Source of the DNA: Escherichia coli
Lineage (GTDB): Bacteria; Pseudomonadota; Gammaproteobacteria; Enterobacterales; Enterobacteriaceae
Strand: one strand, 5' to 3'
Assembly: GCF_009931435.1 (NCBI RefSeq)
Contig: NZ_CP043414.1
Length of the DNA stretch: 64,000 nt
A program made the position numbers and the translations under genes. The notes under the pieces were generated by a model, which was not told the origin of the DNA, ran no database searches, and saw only the letters and a program-made list of their open reading frames with translations. Positions 6,503 through 21,720 of the stretch are shown here, one piece after another (position 1 is the first letter of the stretch; every line of letters starts with the position of its first letter).

Positions 6503-6592
6503 GATTAAGCCGAAGAATAGCCAATGAATTGACTTTAAAAGAGAGATACTCACGGACTTCTGACTTATTTATTTTAGAATCATGAATGTTAG

Positions 6593-6648
6593 CCCGAGGT
6601 AATCTGAAAAAGGTGCAAAAGATTGCACCTTTTTCAGATTACCTCGGG
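6593..6648. terminator. Perfect 26-bp stem hairpin between convergent yjcF and yjcE
   Basis: cccgaggtaatctgaaaaaggtgcaa / aaga loop / ttgcacctttttcagattacctcggg; arms exactly complementary. Confidence 0.6.
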
Positions 6649-6669
6649 CCTGGTTACGTCGCTTTCGGC

Positions 6670-13594: not shown

Positions 13595-14956
13595 CTACAG
13601 TTTGATTGTAATCTGAGTTCCCACAACCCAGGCGTCGTCGATTTCACTCACCCCACCGGGATCAATCAGCAACTGCACATTGGGTCGCAATGTTAACCAC
13701 GGCGTCACCACAAAACTGTAATGCAATTCTGCCGCATACTCAGCGTCTCTTACTGGCGTCCAGGCGGGATTATCATAATCATCAAGACCCTTTTTATCAT
13801 TGAGCAATTGCGCCCGTCTGGCTACTTTACTGTTTTCGTGCATTTTGCTGACGCCAAAGCCAATGTAATCCTGCCCCCGACCGGAAAATGGCCCTTTATA
13901 AATAGCGCCAATTTGCGTCTGGTAATCCATTGTCGCAGTATCCCGATCATTCATCGCCAGATGCCAGAACAGAGAAAGGCCACCACGAGGAGAACGGGGA
14001 TCAGCAGTCACTTGCTGGAGTAAGTAGATCCAGCCACCGTAACGCCCATCGTGAGTCGCCGGGGGACGTTGGCTCGTAACGTAGTCATCGCCTTCTGCAT
14101 CCTTCAGGACGTCACTGGCTTTTGCTGTGTTATACCAGGCTCCTACTTTCCAGGCACCCGGAAGTTTATTCGCACCCAGCGTTGGTGTATACCCAAATTC
14201 CATAAGGTACATATTTCCTAATCTTCCAGTATTATCCAACTGGAAACTGCCGCTTCGCGTCGCATAATTTGGGTTATACATAAACGCGCCGGTCTGCAAA
14301 TAAACTTGCGGTGTAAAATTATAACGTAACCTGGCCCCCCACTGACCAATCGGTGTGTTATACCAGACTCCCGCACCATGACCTGCCAACGAACCACAGA
14401 GGGAAAGGTTCTGGAAATAACAACCATTGTTATCGAAGTCTTCGCCAACCGGCATTAATCCTAACTTTAAATCAATCGTTTTTGCATACCATGATTGACG
14501 ATACCAGAATTGCGCGGCATGCCAGGTTTGACCCCGGCCATAGTTACTGTTTACCGTCGAGCCAATCACTGGGGCTCGAGGATCCTGAATTCTGTCGCTG
14601 GTAAGATCGCGGCCGTTACGATCGATAACAGAGACTTTAAACTCTCCATCCGTGATACCCGCAATTTTTTGCAGATCAAAATCGGCACCGATAATATACT
14701 GGTCGCTATATCGCGCCGTCCGATCCTTGTTATAACCGCCTGAAATATTCGATGTCACCATCGAGCCATATTCCAGAGTAAAATCATATCCTTTGTTTTT
14801 TAACTCACTACGCACTCCATTCCAATCTCCAGCCATATATTTTCCGGTTGAGGAAAAAGGTAACTCATTGGCTAACGAACCAAATGGGAACATCAGTATC
14901 ATCAGGAAAATATAATTTTCCCGTATAGAATGATCCATATTATTTATCCTTTGCAA
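13595..14956 (-). CDS. Accessory island gene 1: outer-membrane porin-like protein (OprB/carbohydrate-selective or OprD-like; family uncertain), 453 aa or shorter
   Basis: Signal-peptide-like N-terminus (…FLMILMFPFGSLA|NELP…); mature part rich in Gly/Tyr/Asn/aromatic residues with alternating hydrophobicity typical of beta-barrel porins; N-terminal GDWNGVRSELKNKGYDF…NISGG resembles the OprB-family start as I recall it. True start may be the internal MDHS. Confidence 0.6.
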   Translation of the reverse strand: MQRINNMDHSIRENYIFLMILMFPFGSLANELPFSSTGKYMAGDWNGVRSELKNKGYDFTLEYGSMVTSNISGGYNKDRTARYSDQYIIGADFDLQKIAGITDGEFKVSVIDRNGRDLTSDRIQDPRAPVIGSTVNSNYGRGQTWHAAQFWYRQSWYAKTIDLKLGLMPVGEDFDNNGCYFQNLSLCGSLAGHGAGVWYNTPIGQWGARLRYNFTPQVYLQTGAFMYNPNYATRSGSFQLDNTGRLGNMYLMEFGYTPTLGANKLPGAWKVGAWYNTAKASDVLKDAEGDDYVTSQRPPATHDGRYGGWIYLLQQVTADPRSPRGGLSLFWHLAMNDRDTATMDYQTQIGAIYKGPFSGRGQDYIGFGVSKMHENSKVARRAQLLNDKKGLDDYDNPAWTPVRDAEYAAELHYSFVVTPWLTLRPNVQLLIDPGGVSEIDDAWVVGTQITIKL

Positions 14957-15060
14957 TCCGAATATAACATTCAGAGAAGCGCTACTGGCAAATATTTCTT
15001 AATGCTGGTGAAACACAGAAATTCTCTGGCAGGCCGATCCTTTCTTCCCGGTCAGTACGG

Positions 15061-16527
15061 CTACGGCGAAAGCTCTTCCAGTGATTTTCCCTTCGTTTCA
15101 ATAGCGAACAAATAGGTAACCAGGCCGCCTATTAACGCGATGACTGCGAACACAATAAAAACAAAGCGGATCCCAAAACCAGAAACAATGAATCCCACCA
15201 GCAACGGTCCAACGGAAGAGCCAGCCCGCAACCAGGCACTGGAAAATGCCGTTCCAATCGCTCTCAGGCGAGTGGGGTATAGCTCTGCAGAGTAGAGATA
15301 AAGAGAGAAGGCAATGGTCTGGAGAATGGCATACGTCATACTACCGAAAATAAGGATTTCAATGGCAGATTTGGCTCCGAAAATACAAAGAGTCACTAAC
15401 GGGATAATGGCCAGTAAATAAGCCCAGGTATACCAGCATTTTCTTCCAATACGATCGATAAGCAGTGCACAAATTACCGACGCAAAAACTCCACAGGAGG
15501 AAGTAATCCAACCATAAGCCAGACTGGTTTCCAGTGGTAAGTGAAAAAGCGTTTTATACATGGTAGGAAACCAGGTGATCATACCATTGTTCACCGTATA
15601 AACGGTCAGCCATAGTCCCCATAACATAAACGTGCGTGATTTATAGATGCCGGAAAATAGTTCTTTTACGCCACCTGCAGGTTCCTTTTGCACAACTGCA
15701 GGATTAATCACCGGCTCAGGTAATTCCATTCCTCGCTGCAGCGCTTCTTTCTCAAACGCCGCAACGACTTTCTCAGCCTGAACATGGCGACCTTTCGCTG
15801 TTAACCAGCGTGGAGACTCAGGCATTAACCAGCGTAACGGAACCGTCAATGCCGAAGGGATAAGACCTATCAAAAACATCACTTTCCAGCCGTAAAGCGG
15901 AACAAGAAAATAGCCTACAAGACCAGCAAACATCATACCGATCGGAAAAATCACCTCGTAGAGTAAAAAAAAGCGGCCACGTTTTTTTGCTCCGATAAAT
16001 TCATTGATATAAGCGCTGGCAACCGGAACTTCTGCCCCTATTCCTAATCCTTGCAGGAAACGGATAACCAGAATCGACCATCCATTCCAGGCAAACAGGC
16101 AAGCGGCATCCATCGCGACGAACATCACAATGGTGATACGCAACACGCCAATGCGGCCAATTTTTTCTGCCAGAGAGCCAAAAAAGAGTGCGCCGCAGAG
16201 CTGCCCAACATAGCTTGCGGCAATGATCAGCCCGATGAAGGTTGGTGTTAATCCCCATTCCTGAGTGAGTTGCGGTAGCGCAAAAGCTATCGCGATAATG
16301 GTGTAAGCATCAAAGAATGTCGATAAACCCACCACTACACGAATAGCTAAAAGACGCCTGGTGACAGGGAGTCGTTCGAGCCTGGCAAGCAGCGTTGCGG
16401 GATCGCCTTCCCGCGGACTGGCAATAATACTTTCAGAAGTAATAACCTGAGTTGACATAGCGATATCCTGTTGATTGATTCGCAAGACAACGAACTGCGC
16501 CAAACCCAGCGGCTGGCAGCTATTCAC
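15061..16527 (-). CDS. Accessory island gene 2: MFS transporter (sugar-porter / aromatic-acid:H+ symporter-like), about 465-488 aa
   Basis: 12-TM profile; MFS signature motifs (…GRIGVLRITI…, …LMPESPRWL…). Track start is GTG at 16527; MSTQVITSES at about 16458 is an alternative start. Confidence 0.8.
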   Translation of the reverse strand: MNSCQPLGLAQFVVLRINQQDIAMSTQVITSESIIASPREGDPATLLARLERLPVTRRLLAIRVVVGLSTFFDAYTIIAIAFALPQLTQEWGLTPTFIGLIIAASYVGQLCGALFFGSLAEKIGRIGVLRITIVMFVAMDAACLFAWNGWSILVIRFLQGLGIGAEVPVASAYINEFIGAKKRGRFFLLYEVIFPIGMMFAGLVGYFLVPLYGWKVMFLIGLIPSALTVPLRWLMPESPRWLTAKGRHVQAEKVVAAFEKEALQRGMELPEPVINPAVVQKEPAGGVKELFSGIYKSRTFMLWGLWLTVYTVNNGMITWFPTMYKTLFHLPLETSLAYGWITSSCGVFASVICALLIDRIGRKCWYTWAYLLAIIPLVTLCIFGAKSAIEILIFGSMTYAILQTIAFSLYLYSAELYPTRLRAIGTAFSSAWLRAGSSVGPLLVGFIVSGFGIRFVFIVFAVIALIGGLVTYLFAIETKGKSLEELSP

Positions 16528-16565
16528 TTGCAGTTATTTGAGAATCTATCTGCATAAAAACCATA

Positions 16566-16593
16566 ATGAAAACGTTTCTGCAATCGTTTTCAT
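16566..16593. promoter_or_regulatory. Operator-like inverted repeat atgaaaacg-N10-cgttttcat in the divergent MFS / regulator promoter region
   Basis: Perfect 9-bp arms with 10-bp spacer; embedded tgcaatcgttttca fits the LacI/cre-type pattern TGnAAnCGnTTnCA; followed by tataat at 16595-16600. Second copy at 18068-18093. Confidence 0.45.
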
Positions 16594-16885
16594 GTATAAT
16601 TATCGTCATTAGTTTCCCGGGGGATGTCAATTCGACTCAGCGAATATTTGTTAATCAGTTCACATTCCGGATATCTGCTTAGAGAAAAAATGTGATGTTG
16701 TTCTTAAAGCCATCAAGAAAGCTCGCGACAAAGATCGGATACGTACACGCTCAGGACGTAGTAAACATCCAACATTTCTTTGTACATACAAAAAATTGCC
16801 GTACCATTTTACAAGGCCAATCATTACGCACTGGCCTTTTGAATGACGGGACCTTTCAGGTAATTAATACATACGGGAGTCAGCT

Positions 16886-17914
16886 ATGAGCCTGGAAAGC
16901 GAAGAAAAAGACCAAACAGAAAAAAAGCTGATCACCATGCGTGACGTGGCGAATGCTGCCGGGGTGAGTATTTCTACCGTTTCGCGTATCCTGGATGAAA
17001 GATTACCGCCATCTAAAAGCGCTTCTGCCGAAAAAGTACGCCAGGTCGCACGCGAATTGGGCTATCGTCGGGATTATGTTGCCTCCAGTCTCCGTCGCGG
17101 CGGCACCGGGACACTTGGTGTATTAGTTCCACGCCTGACTGATGCAGTTACTGCAATGTTGTTTGAAGAAATCGCTAAAGCAGCGTCGCATCGTGGTTAC
17201 TTCGCAGTGGTCGCGACTTGTGGAGACGATCCCCAGCAAGAGCGAGAATCTGTAGAATCACTTCTCGACAGGCGGGTCGACGGCTTGATTATGTCAACCT
17301 GTCGCCTCGGCGATCCCCTACCGCAAACTTTGCGTGAAAGGGATATTCCCCATGTGCTCGCCCTGCGTACTGATGGTGTTAGCCCATCATCCATCGGCGA
17401 TGATGAACTGGGTGGTTACCTTGCTACTCGCCATCTTATTGATTTAGGACATAAAAACATCGGTTTGATAGGTGGCCCGGATTTTGCCTCAAATGCGCTT
17501 AATCGCCGTAAAGGTTTTGAAAAGGCAATGCGCGAAGCCGGACTAACTATACAGCCGCAATGGTGCTGTTCATCAGACTTTAACATCCAGTCGGGAGAAG
17601 AAGCAGGGATGAAACTCCTCAGAACGACTCCTGCTCCAACCGCTATTTTTGCGGTAAATGACGAAATAGCGATTGGTGTGGTTGCTGCCGCTCACCATTT
17701 GGGGATAACAATCGGCCAAGAGTTGTCGTTAGTGGGTTATAACGACATTCCTCTGGTCAGCCGACTTCCTGTGGCGCTCACTTCCGTAAGAACGCCGCTA
17801 GAGCATATCGCCAGTAATGCTGTGGACATGTTGATTAATGCCGACAGTGGCCGCTCTTTGCGTACAACCATACCGACTTTAATACCAAGAAAATCAACGA
17901 GTTCACCCAAGTAA
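16886..17914 (+). CDS. Accessory island gene 3: LacI-family transcriptional regulator, about 325-342 aa
   Basis: N-terminal HTH (…ITMRDVANAAGVSISTVSRILDE…) followed by a periplasmic-binding-protein-like sugar-binding domain; alternative start at MRDVA (about 16937). Confidence 0.85.
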   Translation: MSLESEEKDQTEKKLITMRDVANAAGVSISTVSRILDERLPPSKSASAEKVRQVARELGYRRDYVASSLRRGGTGTLGVLVPRLTDAVTAMLFEEIAKAASHRGYFAVVATCGDDPQQERESVESLLDRRVDGLIMSTCRLGDPLPQTLRERDIPHVLALRTDGVSPSSIGDDELGGYLATRHLIDLGHKNIGLIGGPDFASNALNRRKGFEKAMREAGLTIQPQWCCSSDFNIQSGEEAGMKLLRTTPAPTAIFAVNDEIAIGVVAAAHHLGITIGQELSLVGYNDIPLVSRLPVALTSVRTPLEHIASNAVDMLINADSGRSLRTTIPTLIPRKSTSSPK

Positions 17915-17923
17915 AGCCTGTCT

Positions 17924-17962
17924 TTCATTTGCTGCAAAACCCGGGGTTTTGCAGCAAATGAA
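17924..17962. other. 39-bp near-perfect palindrome just downstream of the regulator gene
   Basis: ttcatttgctgcaaaaccc-g-gggttttgcagcaaatgaa (19-bp arms); no U-tract follows, so either an unusual terminator or a protein-binding site. Confidence 0.4.
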
Positions 17963-18067
17963 GAACATTAAAATTCTTATATTCCTTCCCTGATTTTGTG
18001 ATCCCTGCTGCATTTTTCAACAACTGTTGATTGACAACCTCATTCATCAGGTTCAAATTCAATCTTG

Positions 18068-18093
18068 TGAAAACGATTGCAAGAACGTTTTCA
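18068..18093. promoter_or_regulatory. Operator-like inverted repeat tgaaaacg-N10-cgttttca upstream of the DapA-like/FAH/Dcu genes
   Basis: Perfect 8-bp arms, 10-bp spacer, about 60-80 bp upstream of the ATG at 18151; first arm plus spacer (tgaaaacgattgca) matches TGnAAnCGnTTnCA exactly. Same architecture as 16566-16593. Confidence 0.45.
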
Positions 18094-18150
18094 TTTCGTT
18101 TCTTGCATTGTCCACATAATAAAAAAGACTAAATTATTAAGGAGATAGTC

Positions 18151-19080
18151 ATGATCAATATAGATCTCAGAGGTTTGACCCCGGCACCGGTTACCCCTTT
18201 CAATCGTGATGGTAGTATTGATTTTGATGCTATCCAGCGTCTGGGAAGCTGGCTGGGTAGTATTGACGGCGTTAAAGGGTTAGTTGTACTTGGTCATGCT
18301 GGTGAAGGTACTTTCCTGACACAAGATGAACAGGCCGCTGTGATCCGTGCTTTCGTAAAATCCGTAGATGGCAAGCTGCCTATCATTGCCGGTATCACCG
18401 GTGAAGGGACTGACGTCGCTGCTAAAGAAGCCAAACGTGCCGTGGAAGCTGGTGCTTCAGCAGGCCTGTTATATCCTTCTCATGGATGGTTGCGTTTCGG
18501 CTACCAGGACGGCGCACCACAAGATCGCTACCGCGTTGTCTATGAAGAAAGCGGCCTGCCCTTGATCCTGTTTCAGTATCCTGATGTGACTAAAGCAACC
18601 TATAATCTGCAAACACTGCTGGATATTTCCGCACAACCCGGTGTTTTTGCTATGAAAAATGGTGTACGCAATATGCGTCGTTGGGATACAGAGATCCCGG
18701 TTATCCGCCGCGAGCGTCCGGAATTACAGATCCTCAGTTGCCATGATGAATATCTGGTACACACTGCTTTTGACGTAGATGGTTTCCTTGTCGGCTATGG
18801 CAATATTGCGCCAGAACCGCTCATCGAGATGATCAAAGCAGGTAAAGCTGGCGATTATAAAAAAGCACGCGCGATACATGACCGTCTGCTGCCAGTAACG
18901 AAGTGCGTATATCATCGCGGTTCCCATATGGAAGGAACCGTCGCCCTGAAACACGCGCTGGTTGCTCGCGGTATTCTCGAACATGCTACTGTTCGTTCAC
19001 CGCTATTACCGCTGGAGCATGGTGCCGAAGAAGAAATTCATGCTGCTATGCGTGCAGCTGACCTGCCGCGCGTTAAATAA
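18151..19080 (+). CDS. Accessory island gene 4: DapA/NAL-family class I aldolase or dehydratase (dihydrodipicolinate synthase-like), 309 aa
   Basis: Family-typical layout: …TPAPVTPFNRDGSIDFDAIQRLGSWL…GLVVLGHAGEGTFLTQDEQ…, Tyr in …LFQYPDVT…, candidate Schiff-base Lys in …VFAMKNGV…. Good ribosome-binding site (aaggag) upstream. Confidence 0.8.
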   Translation: MINIDLRGLTPAPVTPFNRDGSIDFDAIQRLGSWLGSIDGVKGLVVLGHAGEGTFLTQDEQAAVIRAFVKSVDGKLPIIAGITGEGTDVAAKEAKRAVEAGASAGLLYPSHGWLRFGYQDGAPQDRYRVVYEESGLPLILFQYPDVTKATYNLQTLLDISAQPGVFAMKNGVRNMRRWDTEIPVIRRERPELQILSCHDEYLVHTAFDVDGFLVGYGNIAPEPLIEMIKAGKAGDYKKARAIHDRLLPVTKCVYHRGSHMEGTVALKHALVARGILEHATVRSPLLPLEHGAEEEIHAAMRAADLPRVK

Positions 19081-19351
19081 CTCCGGCAACAGAAAAGAAA
19101 GCAGTATTCTAAATCACTACTCCTGATGGTTATTGCTTTCTTTCACTTAATGCCACATTAACGACGACAGCCACCTTTACATACAATCATAAGGTGGCTC
19201 ATTCTCTTCATCAGCCTATTGTCGCGCCGGGCTATTTTGAATAACTCAGATGTAATAATGATGAGATTGTTAGAATCCAGGCCATAGTACAACGTCTCAG
19301 AAGCCAGAAGGTAAGTAATGCCCTGATCATGGCATGAATTGAAGGAACATC

Positions 19352-20233
19352 ATGAAACTGCTCAGTTTTTCTGTAGATAACGAAGAAAAGTATGGTGCCA
19401 TCGTATCCGATGGAATTATTGACTTGCATAAATTATTTCCCGAACTTCCCGACCTGAAATCATACGTTGCCAGTCAACATTCATTAGACATCGCTTTGTT
19501 TGCAGGTAAAAAAGCCGATTACCATCAGGGCGAAGTGACTTTTCTGCCCGTAATTACTCGACCAAATAAAATCATCTGCGCAGGTATGAACTACCGGGAA
19601 AAATGTGCAGAATTTAATGAAAAAGGTGGCGATCCGACGCTATTTATCCGTTTTGCTGATACTCAGACGGGCCACCGTTGTGGGTTAATAAAACCGACCC
19701 TGAGTAATGAATTTGATTATGAAGGCGAACTGGCGGTAATTATAGGTCGCCAGGGTTCTCACATTCCTGCTGATGAAGCATTTAACTATATTGCCGGGTA
19801 TAGCTGTTATATGGATGGTTCCGTTCGTGACTGGCAGCACAGCTGGTTTACTGCCGGTAAAAATTGGCCTGCAACAGGTGGATTCGGGCCATGGATGGTT
19901 ACGCCAGATGAAATTCCTGACCCTCAAAATCTGAATATTATCACCCGTCTTAACGGCAAGGAAGTGCAGAATGATAATACACATAGCATGCTGCACTCTA
20001 TTAAGGATTTGATTGCCTATATCAGTACTTTCACCACCTTATCGCCCGGTGACGTGATATTAACAGGCTCTCCGGGTGGGGTCGGTAAAAAACGCTCTCC
20101 ACCGCTCTTCTTGTGGCCTGGTGATATTGTTGAAGTTGAGATTTCAAGAATTGGTTGCCTGATAAATCACATTATAAGCGACAACGAAGAGTATCCGGTC
20201 ACTTTACAATCAGAACTCGATAACGCCTGCTGA
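19352..20233 (+). CDS. Accessory island gene 5: fumarylacetoacetate hydrolase (FAH) family protein (hydratase/decarboxylase/hydrolase type), 293 aa
   Basis: FAH-fold core …FDYEGELAVIIGRQGSHIPADEAFNYIAGYSCYMDGSVRDWQ… and …GDVILTGSPGGVG…. Confidence 0.8.
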   Translation: MKLLSFSVDNEEKYGAIVSDGIIDLHKLFPELPDLKSYVASQHSLDIALFAGKKADYHQGEVTFLPVITRPNKIICAGMNYREKCAEFNEKGGDPTLFIRFADTQTGHRCGLIKPTLSNEFDYEGELAVIIGRQGSHIPADEAFNYIAGYSCYMDGSVRDWQHSWFTAGKNWPATGGFGPWMVTPDEIPDPQNLNIITRLNGKEVQNDNTHSMLHSIKDLIAYISTFTTLSPGDVILTGSPGGVGKKRSPPLFLWPGDIVEVEISRIGCLINHIISDNEEYPVTLQSELDNAC

Positions 20234-20320
20234 TTATAAAGTTAACGAAAAATTCGGATAGATAGCCTGGCACTTTAGAAATTAACATTAAGTGGTAGGC
20301 AATCCTTTCAAGGAGTATGC

Positions 20321-21610
20321 GTGATGATCATGCTGCAATTTATTATCGTTTTATTTTTCCTGTTTTTAGGAATGCGTATTGGCGGCATTGGTGTCGGATT
20401 TGCTGGTGGGGCAGGTGTCATCGCCTTGTGCGCCCTTGGTGCAACACCCGGCGATTTACCGATGCTGGTGATCGTTTTTATTATGGTTGTCATCATTGCA
20501 ATTGCTGCAATGCAAGAAGCGGGTGGGATTGACTATCTGGTTGGTTTAACCGAAAAAATGCTTCGCCGCTACCCTCGCCTGCTGGTAATAACTGCACCTC
20601 TGTCTACATGGCTATTAACCATGATGGCCAGTACCGGTCAGGTGTCATTTGCCTGTATGCCGGTTATTGTGGGTGTCGCGAAGGAAAATCAACTTCGTCC
20701 CACCCGGGCGTTGGCGCTTTCGGTTACCGCTTCATTGTTAGGTATTGTTGCCTCGCCTATCTCTGCCGCCGTTATTTTCTTTTCAGGCATCCTGGAAAAA
20801 AATCACCAGGGATGGGGATATTTGCAACTCATTGCCGTTTCTATACCGGCTACTTTATTAGCGTTGATTTGTACTTCGCTTTTTTACCTGTTCTGGGACA
20901 AACTTCGCCAGAATGATCAATTACCCGTACATATGGCTGTAACGAAAAAATCTCTGTCTGCGCCTGTGGTACAGGGAGCTCGTCGCTCAGTACTAATATT
21001 TATTTTTGGCCTAGTTGTAGTACTTTTTTACGCCCTCATTGCCAGTCCGAAAACAGGCGTTATCATACATCCCGTTTTAAATAGTGGACAGGTCCGTATT
21101 TCAGTAATGATGGCTGTAGCACTCGCCATTGTTATGTTTTGCCGGGTAAATGTGAATAACATTCCTGCGACATCAGTTTTTAAAACAGGGATGACGTCAT
21201 GCATCTGTATTTTAGGTGTCGCCTGGCTCGGTTCTACATTCATGGATAGTAACCAGGTGTGGTTTCAAAGCATGATTTCCGGATATTTATTAGATTCACC
21301 ATTGTTGCTGGCAATTATTATTATGCTGGCGTCATGTTTTCTATATTCTCAGGCGGCCTCCACCAAAATACTTTTTCCTATTGCATTAAGTATGGGTATC
21401 GCCCCTGCCACTCTGGTCGCCTGCTTTCCAGCAACGGCTTCTCTTTTTATTTTACCTAACTACCCCACATTATTAGCCGCCGTGACTCTTGATGATACGG
21501 GGTCAACGAAATTAGGAAATCGAATAATCGATCATCCGTTTATTGTTCCTGGTTTAATGGCAACCGTGTTATCGATACTCTTCGCCGCGGGATTCGCATT
21601 GTTTATTTAA
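20321..21610 (+). CDS. Accessory island gene 6: Dcu-family (DcuA/DcuB-like) C4-dicarboxylate transporter, about 429 aa
   Basis: Close resemblance along the whole length to E. coli DcuA as recalled (…LGMRIGGIGVGFAGGAGV…, …AMQEAGGIDYLV…, …TKLGNRIIDHPFIVPG…); about 10-12 TM segments. Confidence 0.85.
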   Translation: MMIMLQFIIVLFFLFLGMRIGGIGVGFAGGAGVIALCALGATPGDLPMLVIVFIMVVIIAIAAMQEAGGIDYLVGLTEKMLRRYPRLLVITAPLSTWLLTMMASTGQVSFACMPVIVGVAKENQLRPTRALALSVTASLLGIVASPISAAVIFFSGILEKNHQGWGYLQLIAVSIPATLLALICTSLFYLFWDKLRQNDQLPVHMAVTKKSLSAPVVQGARRSVLIFIFGLVVVLFYALIASPKTGVIIHPVLNSGQVRISVMMAVALAIVMFCRVNVNNIPATSVFKTGMTSCICILGVAWLGSTFMDSNQVWFQSMISGYLLDSPLLLAIIIMLASCFLYSQAASTKILFPIALSMGIAPATLVACFPATASLFILPNYPTLLAAVTLDDTGSTKLGNRIIDHPFIVPGLMATVLSILFAAGFALFI

Positions 21611-21698: not shown

Positions 21699-21720
21699 TC
21701 CCCAACCAGCCTGTTGGGGA
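21699..21720. terminator. Hairpin between island and ssb (likely ssb terminator, bidirectional)
   Basis: tccccaac-cagcct-gttgggga; A-run upstream (a T-run on the ssb strand) and T-rich sequence downstream. Confidence 0.55.

What the first reader, a model, noticed from the sequence alone, without database searches (positions are those of the whole stretch)
17924..17962. 39-bp near-perfect palindrome immediately after the regulator gene
ttcatttgctgcaaaaccc-g-gggttttgcagcaaatgaa has 19-bp perfectly complementary arms around a single central base. It sits 10 bp after the regulator stop codon and about 190 bp upstream of the DapA-like gene, with no U-tract, so it is not a canonical intrinsic terminator. 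Such long palindromes can be protein-binding sites, RNase III or RNase E processing stems, or stabilising 3' stem-loops. It is unrelated to the REP consensus seen elsewhere in the window.
Basis: seen in the sequence. Interest (0 to 1): 0.4.

Follow-up and report, generated by a model that had tools for sequence, protein, structure and literature searches.

The report
Hairpin ending a repressor gene's transcript
The 39-base palindrome is real, but it is an ordinary feature: the local version of an RNA hairpin found just after this repressor gene's stop codon in many related bacteria, most likely capping the repressor's mRNA and separating it from the regulated promoter downstream.

Summary
Positions 17924-17962 form a palindrome with perfect 19-nt arms, extendable to 17919-17967. 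It is far beyond chance and single-copy. It sits in a rare 6-gene E. coli accessory island found in 12 of 5426 complete genomes.

It is not the operator. The repressor's real operators are a 26-bp composite LacI-type site present twice, at 16567-16592 and 18068-18093. Both are conserved across genera, together with a CRP-like site and a -35 box.

In 18 of 19 orthologous regulator-to-enzyme loci a stable hairpin starts 0-20 nt after the stop codon, though the sequences differ. The E. coli stem aligns in register with those of Klebsiella variicola, Raoultella, Dickeya and Pantoea. Ten of 18 pairs show compensatory changes, and the G-U pairs inside the helices fall on the sense strand. That marks a selected stem in the sense RNA.

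About half the orthologs carry a T-tract, making them canonical terminators. The E. coli clade does not, and instead has C>G sequence downstream.

Best reading: a 3'-terminal stem-loop without a U-tract, of the kind mapped at Rho-dependent 3' ends. It would protect the regulator mRNA and insulate the downstream promoter. This is a known kind of element and of low interest.

The parts
16886..17914 (+). LacI-family transcriptional regulator gene (342 aa), whose 3' end the hairpin follows
   Evidence: ORF list. Pfam LacI HTH plus Peripla_BP_1/3 domains. RefSeq annotation WP_000051319.1.
17924..17962 (+). Perfect palindrome: 19-nt arms and one central base, forming the core of the RNA hairpin
17919..17967 (+). 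Full predicted stem-loop: about 22 bp with one 1x1 mismatch and a 3-nt loop, dG about -29 kcal/mol
   Evidence: It aligns in register with the hairpins of K. variicola, Raoultella, Dickeya and Pantoea, with compensatory changes.
17968..18047 (+). Untranslated, U-rich tract with C>G after the hairpin (19 C against 8 G in 80 nt). Candidate Rho loading and termination zone; this is inferred.
   Evidence: Orthologs without a U-tract share the C>G bias, and orthologs with a T-tract do not.
17994..18015 (+). CRP-like site (TGTGA at 17997-18001) of the downstream promoter, conserved in all 14 aligned orthologs
   Evidence: Alignment A2 shows invariant TTTGTGA and a conserved CATTT. Its function is inferred from the consensus.
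18031..18036 (+). -35 hexamer TTGACA of the enzyme-operon promoter (TTGAC invariant in orthologs)
   Evidence: Inferred.
18068..18093 (+). Composite LacI-type operator TGAAAACGATTGCAAGAACGTTTTCA: the real operator in front of the DHDPS-family gene
   Evidence: Nearly invariant in 14 orthologs. TGAAAACGATTGCA occurs only here and at 16579-16592 in the window.
16567..16592 (-). Second copy of the composite operator, in reverse-complement orientation, in the divergent MFS-transporter/regulator region
18151..19080 (+). DHDPS-family enzyme gene, first gene of the regulated operon downstream

Best explanation
The palindrome encodes the 3'-terminal stem-loop of the LacI-family regulator's mRNA. When transcribed on the + strand it folds into a hairpin of about 22 bp, starting 5 nt after the stop codon. 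It has no U-tract, so it probably does not release RNA polymerase efficiently by itself. The likely sequence of events is as follows. Transcription of the untranslated, C>G-biased 236-nt spacer is ended by Rho, or decays. 3'-to-5' exonucleases then trim the transcript back to the hairpin. The hairpin thereby defines and protects the regulator mRNA's 3' end. The net effect is that constitutive regulator transcription is kept apart from the CRP-dependent, operator-controlled promoter of the enzyme operon. Shown here: the hairpin exists, its position and pairing are conserved across genera, the selection acts on the sense RNA, and it is distinct from the operators. Inferred: the involvement of Rho and exonucleases, and the insulating effect.
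For: (1) In 18 of 19 orthologous regulator-to-DHDPS loci a stable hairpin (dG -12.8 to -28.8 kcal/mol) begins 0-20 nt after the stop codon. The first 60 nt after the stop fold better than the last 60 nt of the coding sequence in all 19 loci, and better than the next 60 nt in 18 of 19. (2) The sequences differ but the pairing is kept. In the six-sequence alignment A3, 79.6% of cells pair and 10 of 18 pairs have changes on both sides. Shuffles average 5.1 such pairs, with 1 of 500 reaching the observed value, and slid registers give 1-4. (3) Within the helices, the non-Watson-Crick pairs are almost all G-U on the + strand. The + strand also folds better than the - strand in 11 of the 19 orthologs, by 3-10 kcal/mol in 9 of them. 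This indicates selection on the sense RNA rather than on duplex DNA. (4) About half of the orthologs (Klebsiella oxytoca group, Intestinirhabdus, Citrobacter youngae, two metagenome loci) carry a T-rich tail, which makes them canonical intrinsic terminators at the same position. The position is therefore a transcript end. (5) Loci without a U-tract, including E. coli, have C/G of 1.7-2.4 in the 80 nt after the hairpin (one exception at 1.0). Loci with a T-tract have 0.8-1.4. (6) Dar & Sorek 2018 (PMC6061677) mapped this class in E. coli. [quoted passage not shown] (7) The real operators, the CRP-like site and the -35 box lie downstream and are conserved in sequence, unlike the hairpin.
Against: There are no transcript data for this locus, so no 3' end has been shown. 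The C>G bias is mild (93rd percentile of the window). It overlaps an AT-rich promoter region. The loci compared are phylogenetically related, so the contrast is only suggestive. One ortholog (Pantoea sp., L096) has no convincing hairpin. The E. coli stem is much longer and more perfect than function as a 3' cap would require. The perfect symmetry of the E. coli copy gives no information on strand by itself.
Confidence: 0.68

Rival explanations
1. It is a weak, non-canonical intrinsic terminator. The very stable hairpin, together with the interrupted U-rich tail UUAAAAUUCUUAUAUU, releases RNA polymerase directly without Rho.
For: The position is that of a terminator, and about half of the orthologs have canonical T-tract terminators there. 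The E. coli tail has the fifth-highest T-score of the 19 loci (3.16; 4 T in the first 8, 9 in the first 16). The stem is very stable.
Against: The tail fails the usual criterion of at least 5 T in 8, and only two U directly follow the stem. Its closest structural homologs (K. variicola, Raoultella, Dickeya, Pantoea) have no T-richness at all, yet keep the stem by compensatory change.
Confidence: 0.17
2. It is a DNA-level protein-binding site. One possibility is an auxiliary operator for the LacI-family regulator, allowing looping in the manner of lac O3 at the end of lacI. Another is a site for a different dimeric factor.
For: Each arm contains TGCAAAAC, which resembles the LacI-family half-sites TGAAAAC and TGCAATC of the local operator. 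Its location, upstream of a CRP site at the end of the repressor gene, recalls lac O3 (my own knowledge).
Against: The half-site-like motifs are 16 bp apart centre to centre instead of 7, and there is no central CG. The 14-mer operator pattern matches only at 16579-16592 and 18068-18081. The sequence is not conserved in any ortholog, whereas the true operator and the CRP-like site are nearly invariant. G-U pairs in orthologs point to RNA rather than duplex DNA. Arms of 19 bp are far longer than a transcription-factor site needs.
Confidence: 0.05
3. It is an RNase III (or other endonuclease) processing stem that destabilises or matures the regulator mRNA rather than protecting it.
For: The extended stem of about 22 bp is near the length RNase III needs (my own knowledge). 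It is longer than all orthologous stems.
Against: Orthologous stems of 8-18 bp are mostly too short for RNase III, yet they are conserved at the same place. So the conserved function does not need that length. There is no direct evidence.
Confidence: 0.05
4. The unusual perfection and length are a mutational by-product. An ancestral imperfect terminator hairpin would have been 'corrected' to a perfect palindrome by replication template switching, with no function beyond that of the ancestral hairpin.
For: All 19 arm positions are Watson-Crick with no G-U, unlike every ortholog. Perfect inverted repeats are strongly over-represented in E. coli non-coding DNA, and template-switch correction has been proposed for them (Lavi et al. 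2018, PMC5941160). Two of the 12 E. coli strains carry C-to-A at 17940, which breaks a pair without compensation.
Against: This explains the form, not the presence. It is compatible with the best explanation rather than an alternative to it. No intermediate imperfect allele was found.
Confidence: 0.04
5. It is a member or remnant of a dispersed repeat family or mobile element (REP-like, MITE or IS end).
For: Palindromic extragenic repeats are common in E. coli (my own knowledge).
Against: There is one copy per genome, and only in the 12 genomes that carry the island. It is absent from plasmids and viral contigs. The two hits among 241 million metagenome records are the same island at 99.6-99.75% identity. 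No other copy exists in the window. It has no Rfam family.
Confidence: 0.01

Closest known systems
[quoted passage not shown]
   Same: A stable stem-loop just downstream of a gene, no uridine tract, and C-over-G bias in the downstream sequence. It is not a REP element.
   Different: No 3'-end, bicyclomycin or exonuclease-mutant data exist for this locus. The stem (about 22 bp, perfect over 19) is longer than typical.
Canonical intrinsic (Rho-independent) terminators
   Same: Position right after the stop codon, a stable hairpin and a short loop. Orthologs in the Klebsiella oxytoca group, Citrobacter youngae and others have a true T-tract terminator at the same place.
   Different: The E. coli copy and its closest structural homologs lack the U-tract. 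The lower part of the stem is AT-rich.
REP / BIME extragenic palindromes
   Same: An extragenic palindrome of about 35-40 bp that can protect upstream mRNA from 3' exonucleases.
   Different: Single copy, no REP consensus, and not dispersed.
LacI-family operators, including the auxiliary operator lac O3 at the end of lacI
   Same: A palindrome at the end of a LacI-family repressor gene, upstream of a CRP-type site. The arms contain TGCAAAAC-like half-sites.
   Different: The spacing is wrong, there is no central CG, and the sequence is not conserved. The true operators are a different 26-bp composite site present at both promoters.

Membership tests
Intrinsic (Rho-independent) terminator | Stable, usually G+C-rich stem-loop shortly after the end of a gene | tested here: met
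   dG -29.6 kcal/mol, z -6.5. The stem-loop starts 5 nt after the stop codon.
Intrinsic (Rho-independent) terminator | Run of U (about 5 or more of 8) immediately 3' of the stem | tested here: not met
   The tail is TTAAAATT, with 4 T of 8 and only two adjacent to the stem. The scan does not call it.
Intrinsic (Rho-independent) terminator | Factor-independent release of RNA polymerase in vitro | not testable with these tools
   Needs an in vitro transcription assay.
Protective 3' stem-loop of Rho-dependent transcripts (Dar & Sorek 2018) | [quoted passage not shown] | tested here: met
Protective 3' stem-loop of Rho-dependent transcripts (Dar & Sorek 2018) | C-over-G enrichment in the downstream sequence (rut-like) | tested here: met
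   19 C against 8 G in the 80 nt after the stem, at the 93rd percentile of the window. The same bias is present in 8 of 9 loci without a U-tract and absent from orthologs with a T-tract. The effect is mild and confounded by the promoter's composition.
Protective 3' stem-loop of Rho-dependent transcripts (Dar & Sorek 2018) | Steady-state RNA 3' end at the base of the stem; read-through with bicyclomycin; longer tails in pnp/rnb mutants | not testable with these tools
   No transcript data for strains carrying the island.
Conserved RNA structural element | Pairing maintained by compensatory substitutions across homologs | tested here: met
   10 of 18 pairs changed on both sides, against 5.1 in shuffles (1 of 500 reaching the observed value) and 1-4 in slid registers. 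G-U pairs lie on the sense strand. Only six sequences were used, and the structure was derived from one of them.
LacI-family operator | 14-20 bp palindrome with adjacent half-sites around a central CG, matching sites at co-regulated promoters | tested here: not met
   The operator motif occurs only at 16579-16592 and 18068-18081. In the palindrome the half-site-like motifs are separated by CCGGG, and the sequence is not conserved.
REP or other dispersed extragenic repeat, or MITE | Many copies per genome sharing a consensus | tested here: not met
   Single copy, and only in island-bearing genomes. No Rfam match.

The most novel reading that the evidence does not exclude
The extension of an ancestral stem of 8-14 bp to a perfect stem of about 22 bp in the E. 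coli island may be adaptive. It would turn a simple 3' cap into a double-stranded RNA substrate for RNase III, or into a DNA cruciform or auxiliary looping site. That would set the regulator's own level and so the inducibility of the acquired catabolic island.
Probability: 0.05. Interest if true: 0.35.

Novelty: new member of a known kind. Interest (0 to 1): 0.12.

Why it matters
It matters little beyond annotation. The analysis marks the end of the regulator's transcription unit in a rare E. coli catabolic island. It also separates the hairpin from the real control elements of the island: two copies of a 26-bp composite LacI-type operator, a CRP-like site and a promoter. A modest general point is that within one orthologous position some lineages use a T-tract terminator. 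Others use a hairpin without a U-tract followed by C>G sequence. This could serve as a small natural test case for switching between intrinsic termination and Rho-dependent termination combined with exonuclease trimming.

Tried and rejected
Repeat family: I searched the window with up to 3 mismatches, all complete E. coli genomes in distant mode, plasmids, viral contigs and metagenome contigs. Only the locus itself turned up.

Rfam: a permissive scan gave only chance-level miRNA and snoRNA hits with E > 2.

Operator hypothesis: rejected after the real operators were found at both promoters.

A second palindrome, CTGCGATC-NN-GATCGCAG, seen in Dickeya and Pantoea allii orthologs, was sought in the window. 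It is absent.

Naming the pathway with NCBIfam: no family reached its curated cut-off for the regulator, the DHDPS-family protein or the FAH-family protein, so the substrate of the island remains unknown.

Covariation in the T-tract clades: these sequences are too similar to be informative, with 0 and 3 compensatory pairs.

One malformed literature query failed.

Full report
**Observation.** The window sequence at 17924-17962 reads TTCATTTGCTGCAAAACCC-G-GGGTTTTGCAGCAAATGAA. It has 19-nt arms that are perfectly complementary around one central base. The inverted repeat extends to 24-nt arms at 92% complementarity (17919-17942 / 17944-17967).

It begins 10 nt after the TAA stop codon (17912-17914) of a 342-aa LacI-family regulator gene (16886-17914). 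It ends 189 nt before the ATG (18151) of a DHDPS-family gene. No T-run follows it: the tail is TTAAAATTCTTATAT, and the terminator scan does not call it.

As RNA it folds into a hairpin of about 22 bp at -29.6 kcal/mol (z = -6.5). As DNA it folds at -20.3 kcal/mol (z = -7.9). None of 100 shuffles of the window contained such a sequence. It is the second-longest close inverted repeat in the 64-kb window.

**Context.** The window is Escherichia coli. The regulator and its neighbours form a six-gene accessory island inserted between yjcB and ssb:
- an OprB-type porin
- an MFS transporter
- the LacI-family regulator
- a DHDPS-family enzyme
- a fumarylacetoacetate-hydrolase-family enzyme
- a Dcu-type transporter

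The island is present in only 12 of 5426 complete E. coli genomes. NCBIfam gives no specific name to the regulator or the enzymes.

**Not a repeat family.** The palindrome with its flanks occurs once per genome, and only in those 12 genomes (each genome shows two 'places' because a palindrome matches both strands). It is absent from 72,556 plasmids and from the viral contig collection. In 241 million metagenome records the pattern TTGCTGCAAAAC-N5-GTTTTGCAGCAA hit two contigs, and both are the same island at 99.6-99.75% identity. No Rfam family matches. Two E. coli strains carry a single C-to-A change at 17940, which breaks one pair near the loop.

**Not the operator.** The divergent region between the MFS transporter and the regulator contains TGAAAACGTTTCTGCAATCGTTTTCA (16567-16592). 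The region in front of the DHDPS-family gene contains TGAAAACGATTGCAAGAACGTTTTCA (18068-18093). These are near reverse complements of each other.

The 14-mer TGAAAACGATTGCA is a classical LacI-family operator form, TGnAAnCGnTTnCA (my own knowledge of the family). It occurs exactly twice in the window, at these two places.

In an alignment of 14 orthologous regulator-to-enzyme spacers from Klebsiella, Raoultella, Dickeya, Pantoea, Citrobacter, Intestinirhabdus and Enterobacillus, this operator is nearly invariant. So are a CRP-like site (TTTGTGA...CATTT; 17994-18015 in the window) and a TTGAC -35 box (18031-18036). The first 60-100 nt after the stop codon are not conserved in sequence.

The palindrome arms contain TGCAAAAC, which resembles an operator half-site. 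However, the two copies are separated by CCGGG, so their centres are 16 bp apart rather than 7. There is also no central CG. A LacI-type dimer would not fit, and no ortholog keeps the sequence.

**What is conserved is a hairpin.** I collected 19 orthologous loci: the window, ten genomes from the genome collection, and eight loci reached through homologous regulator proteins.

In 18 of the 19 loci a stable single hairpin (dG -12.8 to -28.8 kcal/mol, 8-22 bp) starts 0-20 nt after the regulator's stop codon. The first 60 nt after the stop fold better than the last 60 nt of the coding region in all 19 loci. They fold better than the next 60 nt in 18 of 19. Only one Pantoea sp. locus (L096) lacks a convincing hairpin.

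The E. coli hairpin is homologous, in register, to those of K. variicola, Raoultella terrigena, Dickeya and two Pantoea species. They share a GCTGCA/TGCAGC core. On that six-sequence alignment:
- 79.6% of cells form standard pairs.
- 10 of 18 pairs show changes on both sides. Shuffles average 5.1, with 1 of 500 reaching 10, and slid registers give 1-4.
- An example of a compensatory change is GCTGCA/TGCAGC in E. coli becoming GCTACA/TGTAGC in Dickeya.
- Inside the helices the non-Watson-Crick pairs are almost all G-U on the + strand.

The + strand also folds 3-10 kcal/mol better than the - strand in 9 of the 19 orthologs. G-U pairs exist only in RNA, and only on one strand. The selected object is therefore a stem in the sense transcript, not a duplex-DNA site. 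One caveat applies: only six sequences were used, and the tested structure was taken from one of them.

**Terminator or cap.** About half the orthologs have a T-rich tail with at least 5 T in 8: the Klebsiella oxytoca, michiganensis and grimontii group, Intestinirhabdus, Citrobacter youngae, and two metagenome loci. These are canonical intrinsic terminators (little variation within these clades). This shows that the position is a transcript end.

The E. coli clade has no T-tract, yet keeps the stem by compensation. Loci without a U-tract have C/G ratios of 1.7-2.4 in the 80 nt following the hairpin. E. coli has 19 C against 8 G, at the 93rd percentile of the window, and P. allii is an exception at 1.0. 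Loci with a T-tract have 0.8-1.4.

This matches the class described by Dar & Sorek 2018 (PMC6061677). [quoted passage not shown] These stem-loops lack uridine tracts, are followed by C-over-G enrichment, and protect the mRNA from PNPase and RNase II after diffuse Rho termination downstream.

I therefore favour the following mechanism. The hairpin is the protective 3' cap of the regulator mRNA. Rho acts on the 236-nt untranslated spacer. Read-through into the CRP-dependent, operator-controlled enzyme promoter is thereby limited. The Rho and exonuclease steps and the insulation effect are inferred. The contrast in C/G ratios rests on few, related loci and on a region that is also a promoter.

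**Rivals.**
- A weak intrinsic terminator using the interrupted UUAAAAUUCUU tail remains possible (about 0.17).
- A DNA-binding site (about 0.05) is disfavoured by the points above.
- An RNase III processing site (about 0.05) would fit only the unusual length of the E. coli stem, and that length is not conserved.
- The perfection of the palindrome, with no G-U pairs or mismatches in 19 pairs, is unlike all orthologs. It may be a by-product of template-switch 'correction' of an imperfect inverted repeat. This process has been proposed to explain the excess and conservation of perfect inverted repeats in E. coli non-coding DNA (Lavi et al. 2018, PMC5941160). It would explain the form, not the function.
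- A mobile or dispersed repeat is effectively excluded.

**Verdict.** This is a real, non-random, locus-specific palindrome. It is the local member of a positionally conserved, covarying RNA hairpin at the 3' end of a regulator gene. It belongs to a known kind of element: a transcript-end stem-loop, here of the type without a U-tract. Interest is low.

Noticed in passing
window 6592-6649: An even longer perfect palindrome, with 27-nt arms and a 4-nt spacer (GCCCGAGGTAATCTGAAAAAGGTGCAA / TTGCACCTTTTTCAGATTACCTCGGGC). It lies between the convergent core genes actP and yjcE and also has no T-tract. The 91-nt region is found in 4109 of 5426 E. coli genomes, but only 19 are at least 99% identical to this window's copy. 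It is probably a bidirectional 3' stem-loop. I did not check whether its perfection varies between strains.
   Followed up: partly
window 16567-16592 and 18068-18093: A 26-bp composite (double) LacI-type operator is present twice in the island, in opposite orientations. One copy lies in the MFS-transporter/regulator divergent region and the other in front of the DHDPS-family gene. It is nearly invariant across Klebsiella, Raoultella, Dickeya, Pantoea and Citrobacter. It defines the regulon of this uncharacterised repressor.
   Followed up: partly
window 17994-18036: A conserved CRP-like site (TGTGA at 17997-18001) lies about 27 bp upstream of a TTGACA -35 box. If the -10 element is TCAAAT at 18053-18058, the site is centred near -61.5. 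This suggests a class I CRP-dependent promoter for the enzyme operon. The inference rests on consensus only.
   Followed up: no
window 13595-21610 (the island); L083, L086, L088, L091-L093: The six-gene island between yjcB and ssb occurs in only 12 of 5426 complete E. coli genomes. Orthologous clusters in K. variicola, Dickeya and other species carry a second MFS transporter gene between the DHDPS-family and FAH-family genes. E. coli lacks this gene: 19081-19351 is a 271-bp gap. The substrate is unknown, since no NCBIfam equivalog applies.
   Followed up: partly
L086 4085-4102, L087 4085-4102, L012 7081-7098: A second palindrome, CTGCGATC-NN-GATCGCAG, lies between the post-stop hairpin and the CRP-like site in Dickeya and Pantoea allii. 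Degenerate versions (ATCTGCGATCG...) occur in Raoultella and K. variicola. It is absent from the E. coli island. It could be a second hairpin or a site for another regulator.
   Followed up: partly
window 17940 (L002 position 326): Two of the 12 E. coli strains (Z1323HEC0423 and Z1323HEC0067) carry C-to-A at this position. It creates an uncompensated mismatch three pairs from the loop.
   Followed up: yes
window 21700-21719: A short GC-rich hairpin, CCCCAAC-CAGCCT-GTTGGGG, is flanked by an A-run upstream and T-rich sequence downstream. It lies between the island's last gene (Dcu-type transporter) and the convergent ssb gene, and looks like a canonical bidirectional terminator at the island's edge.
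   Followed up: no
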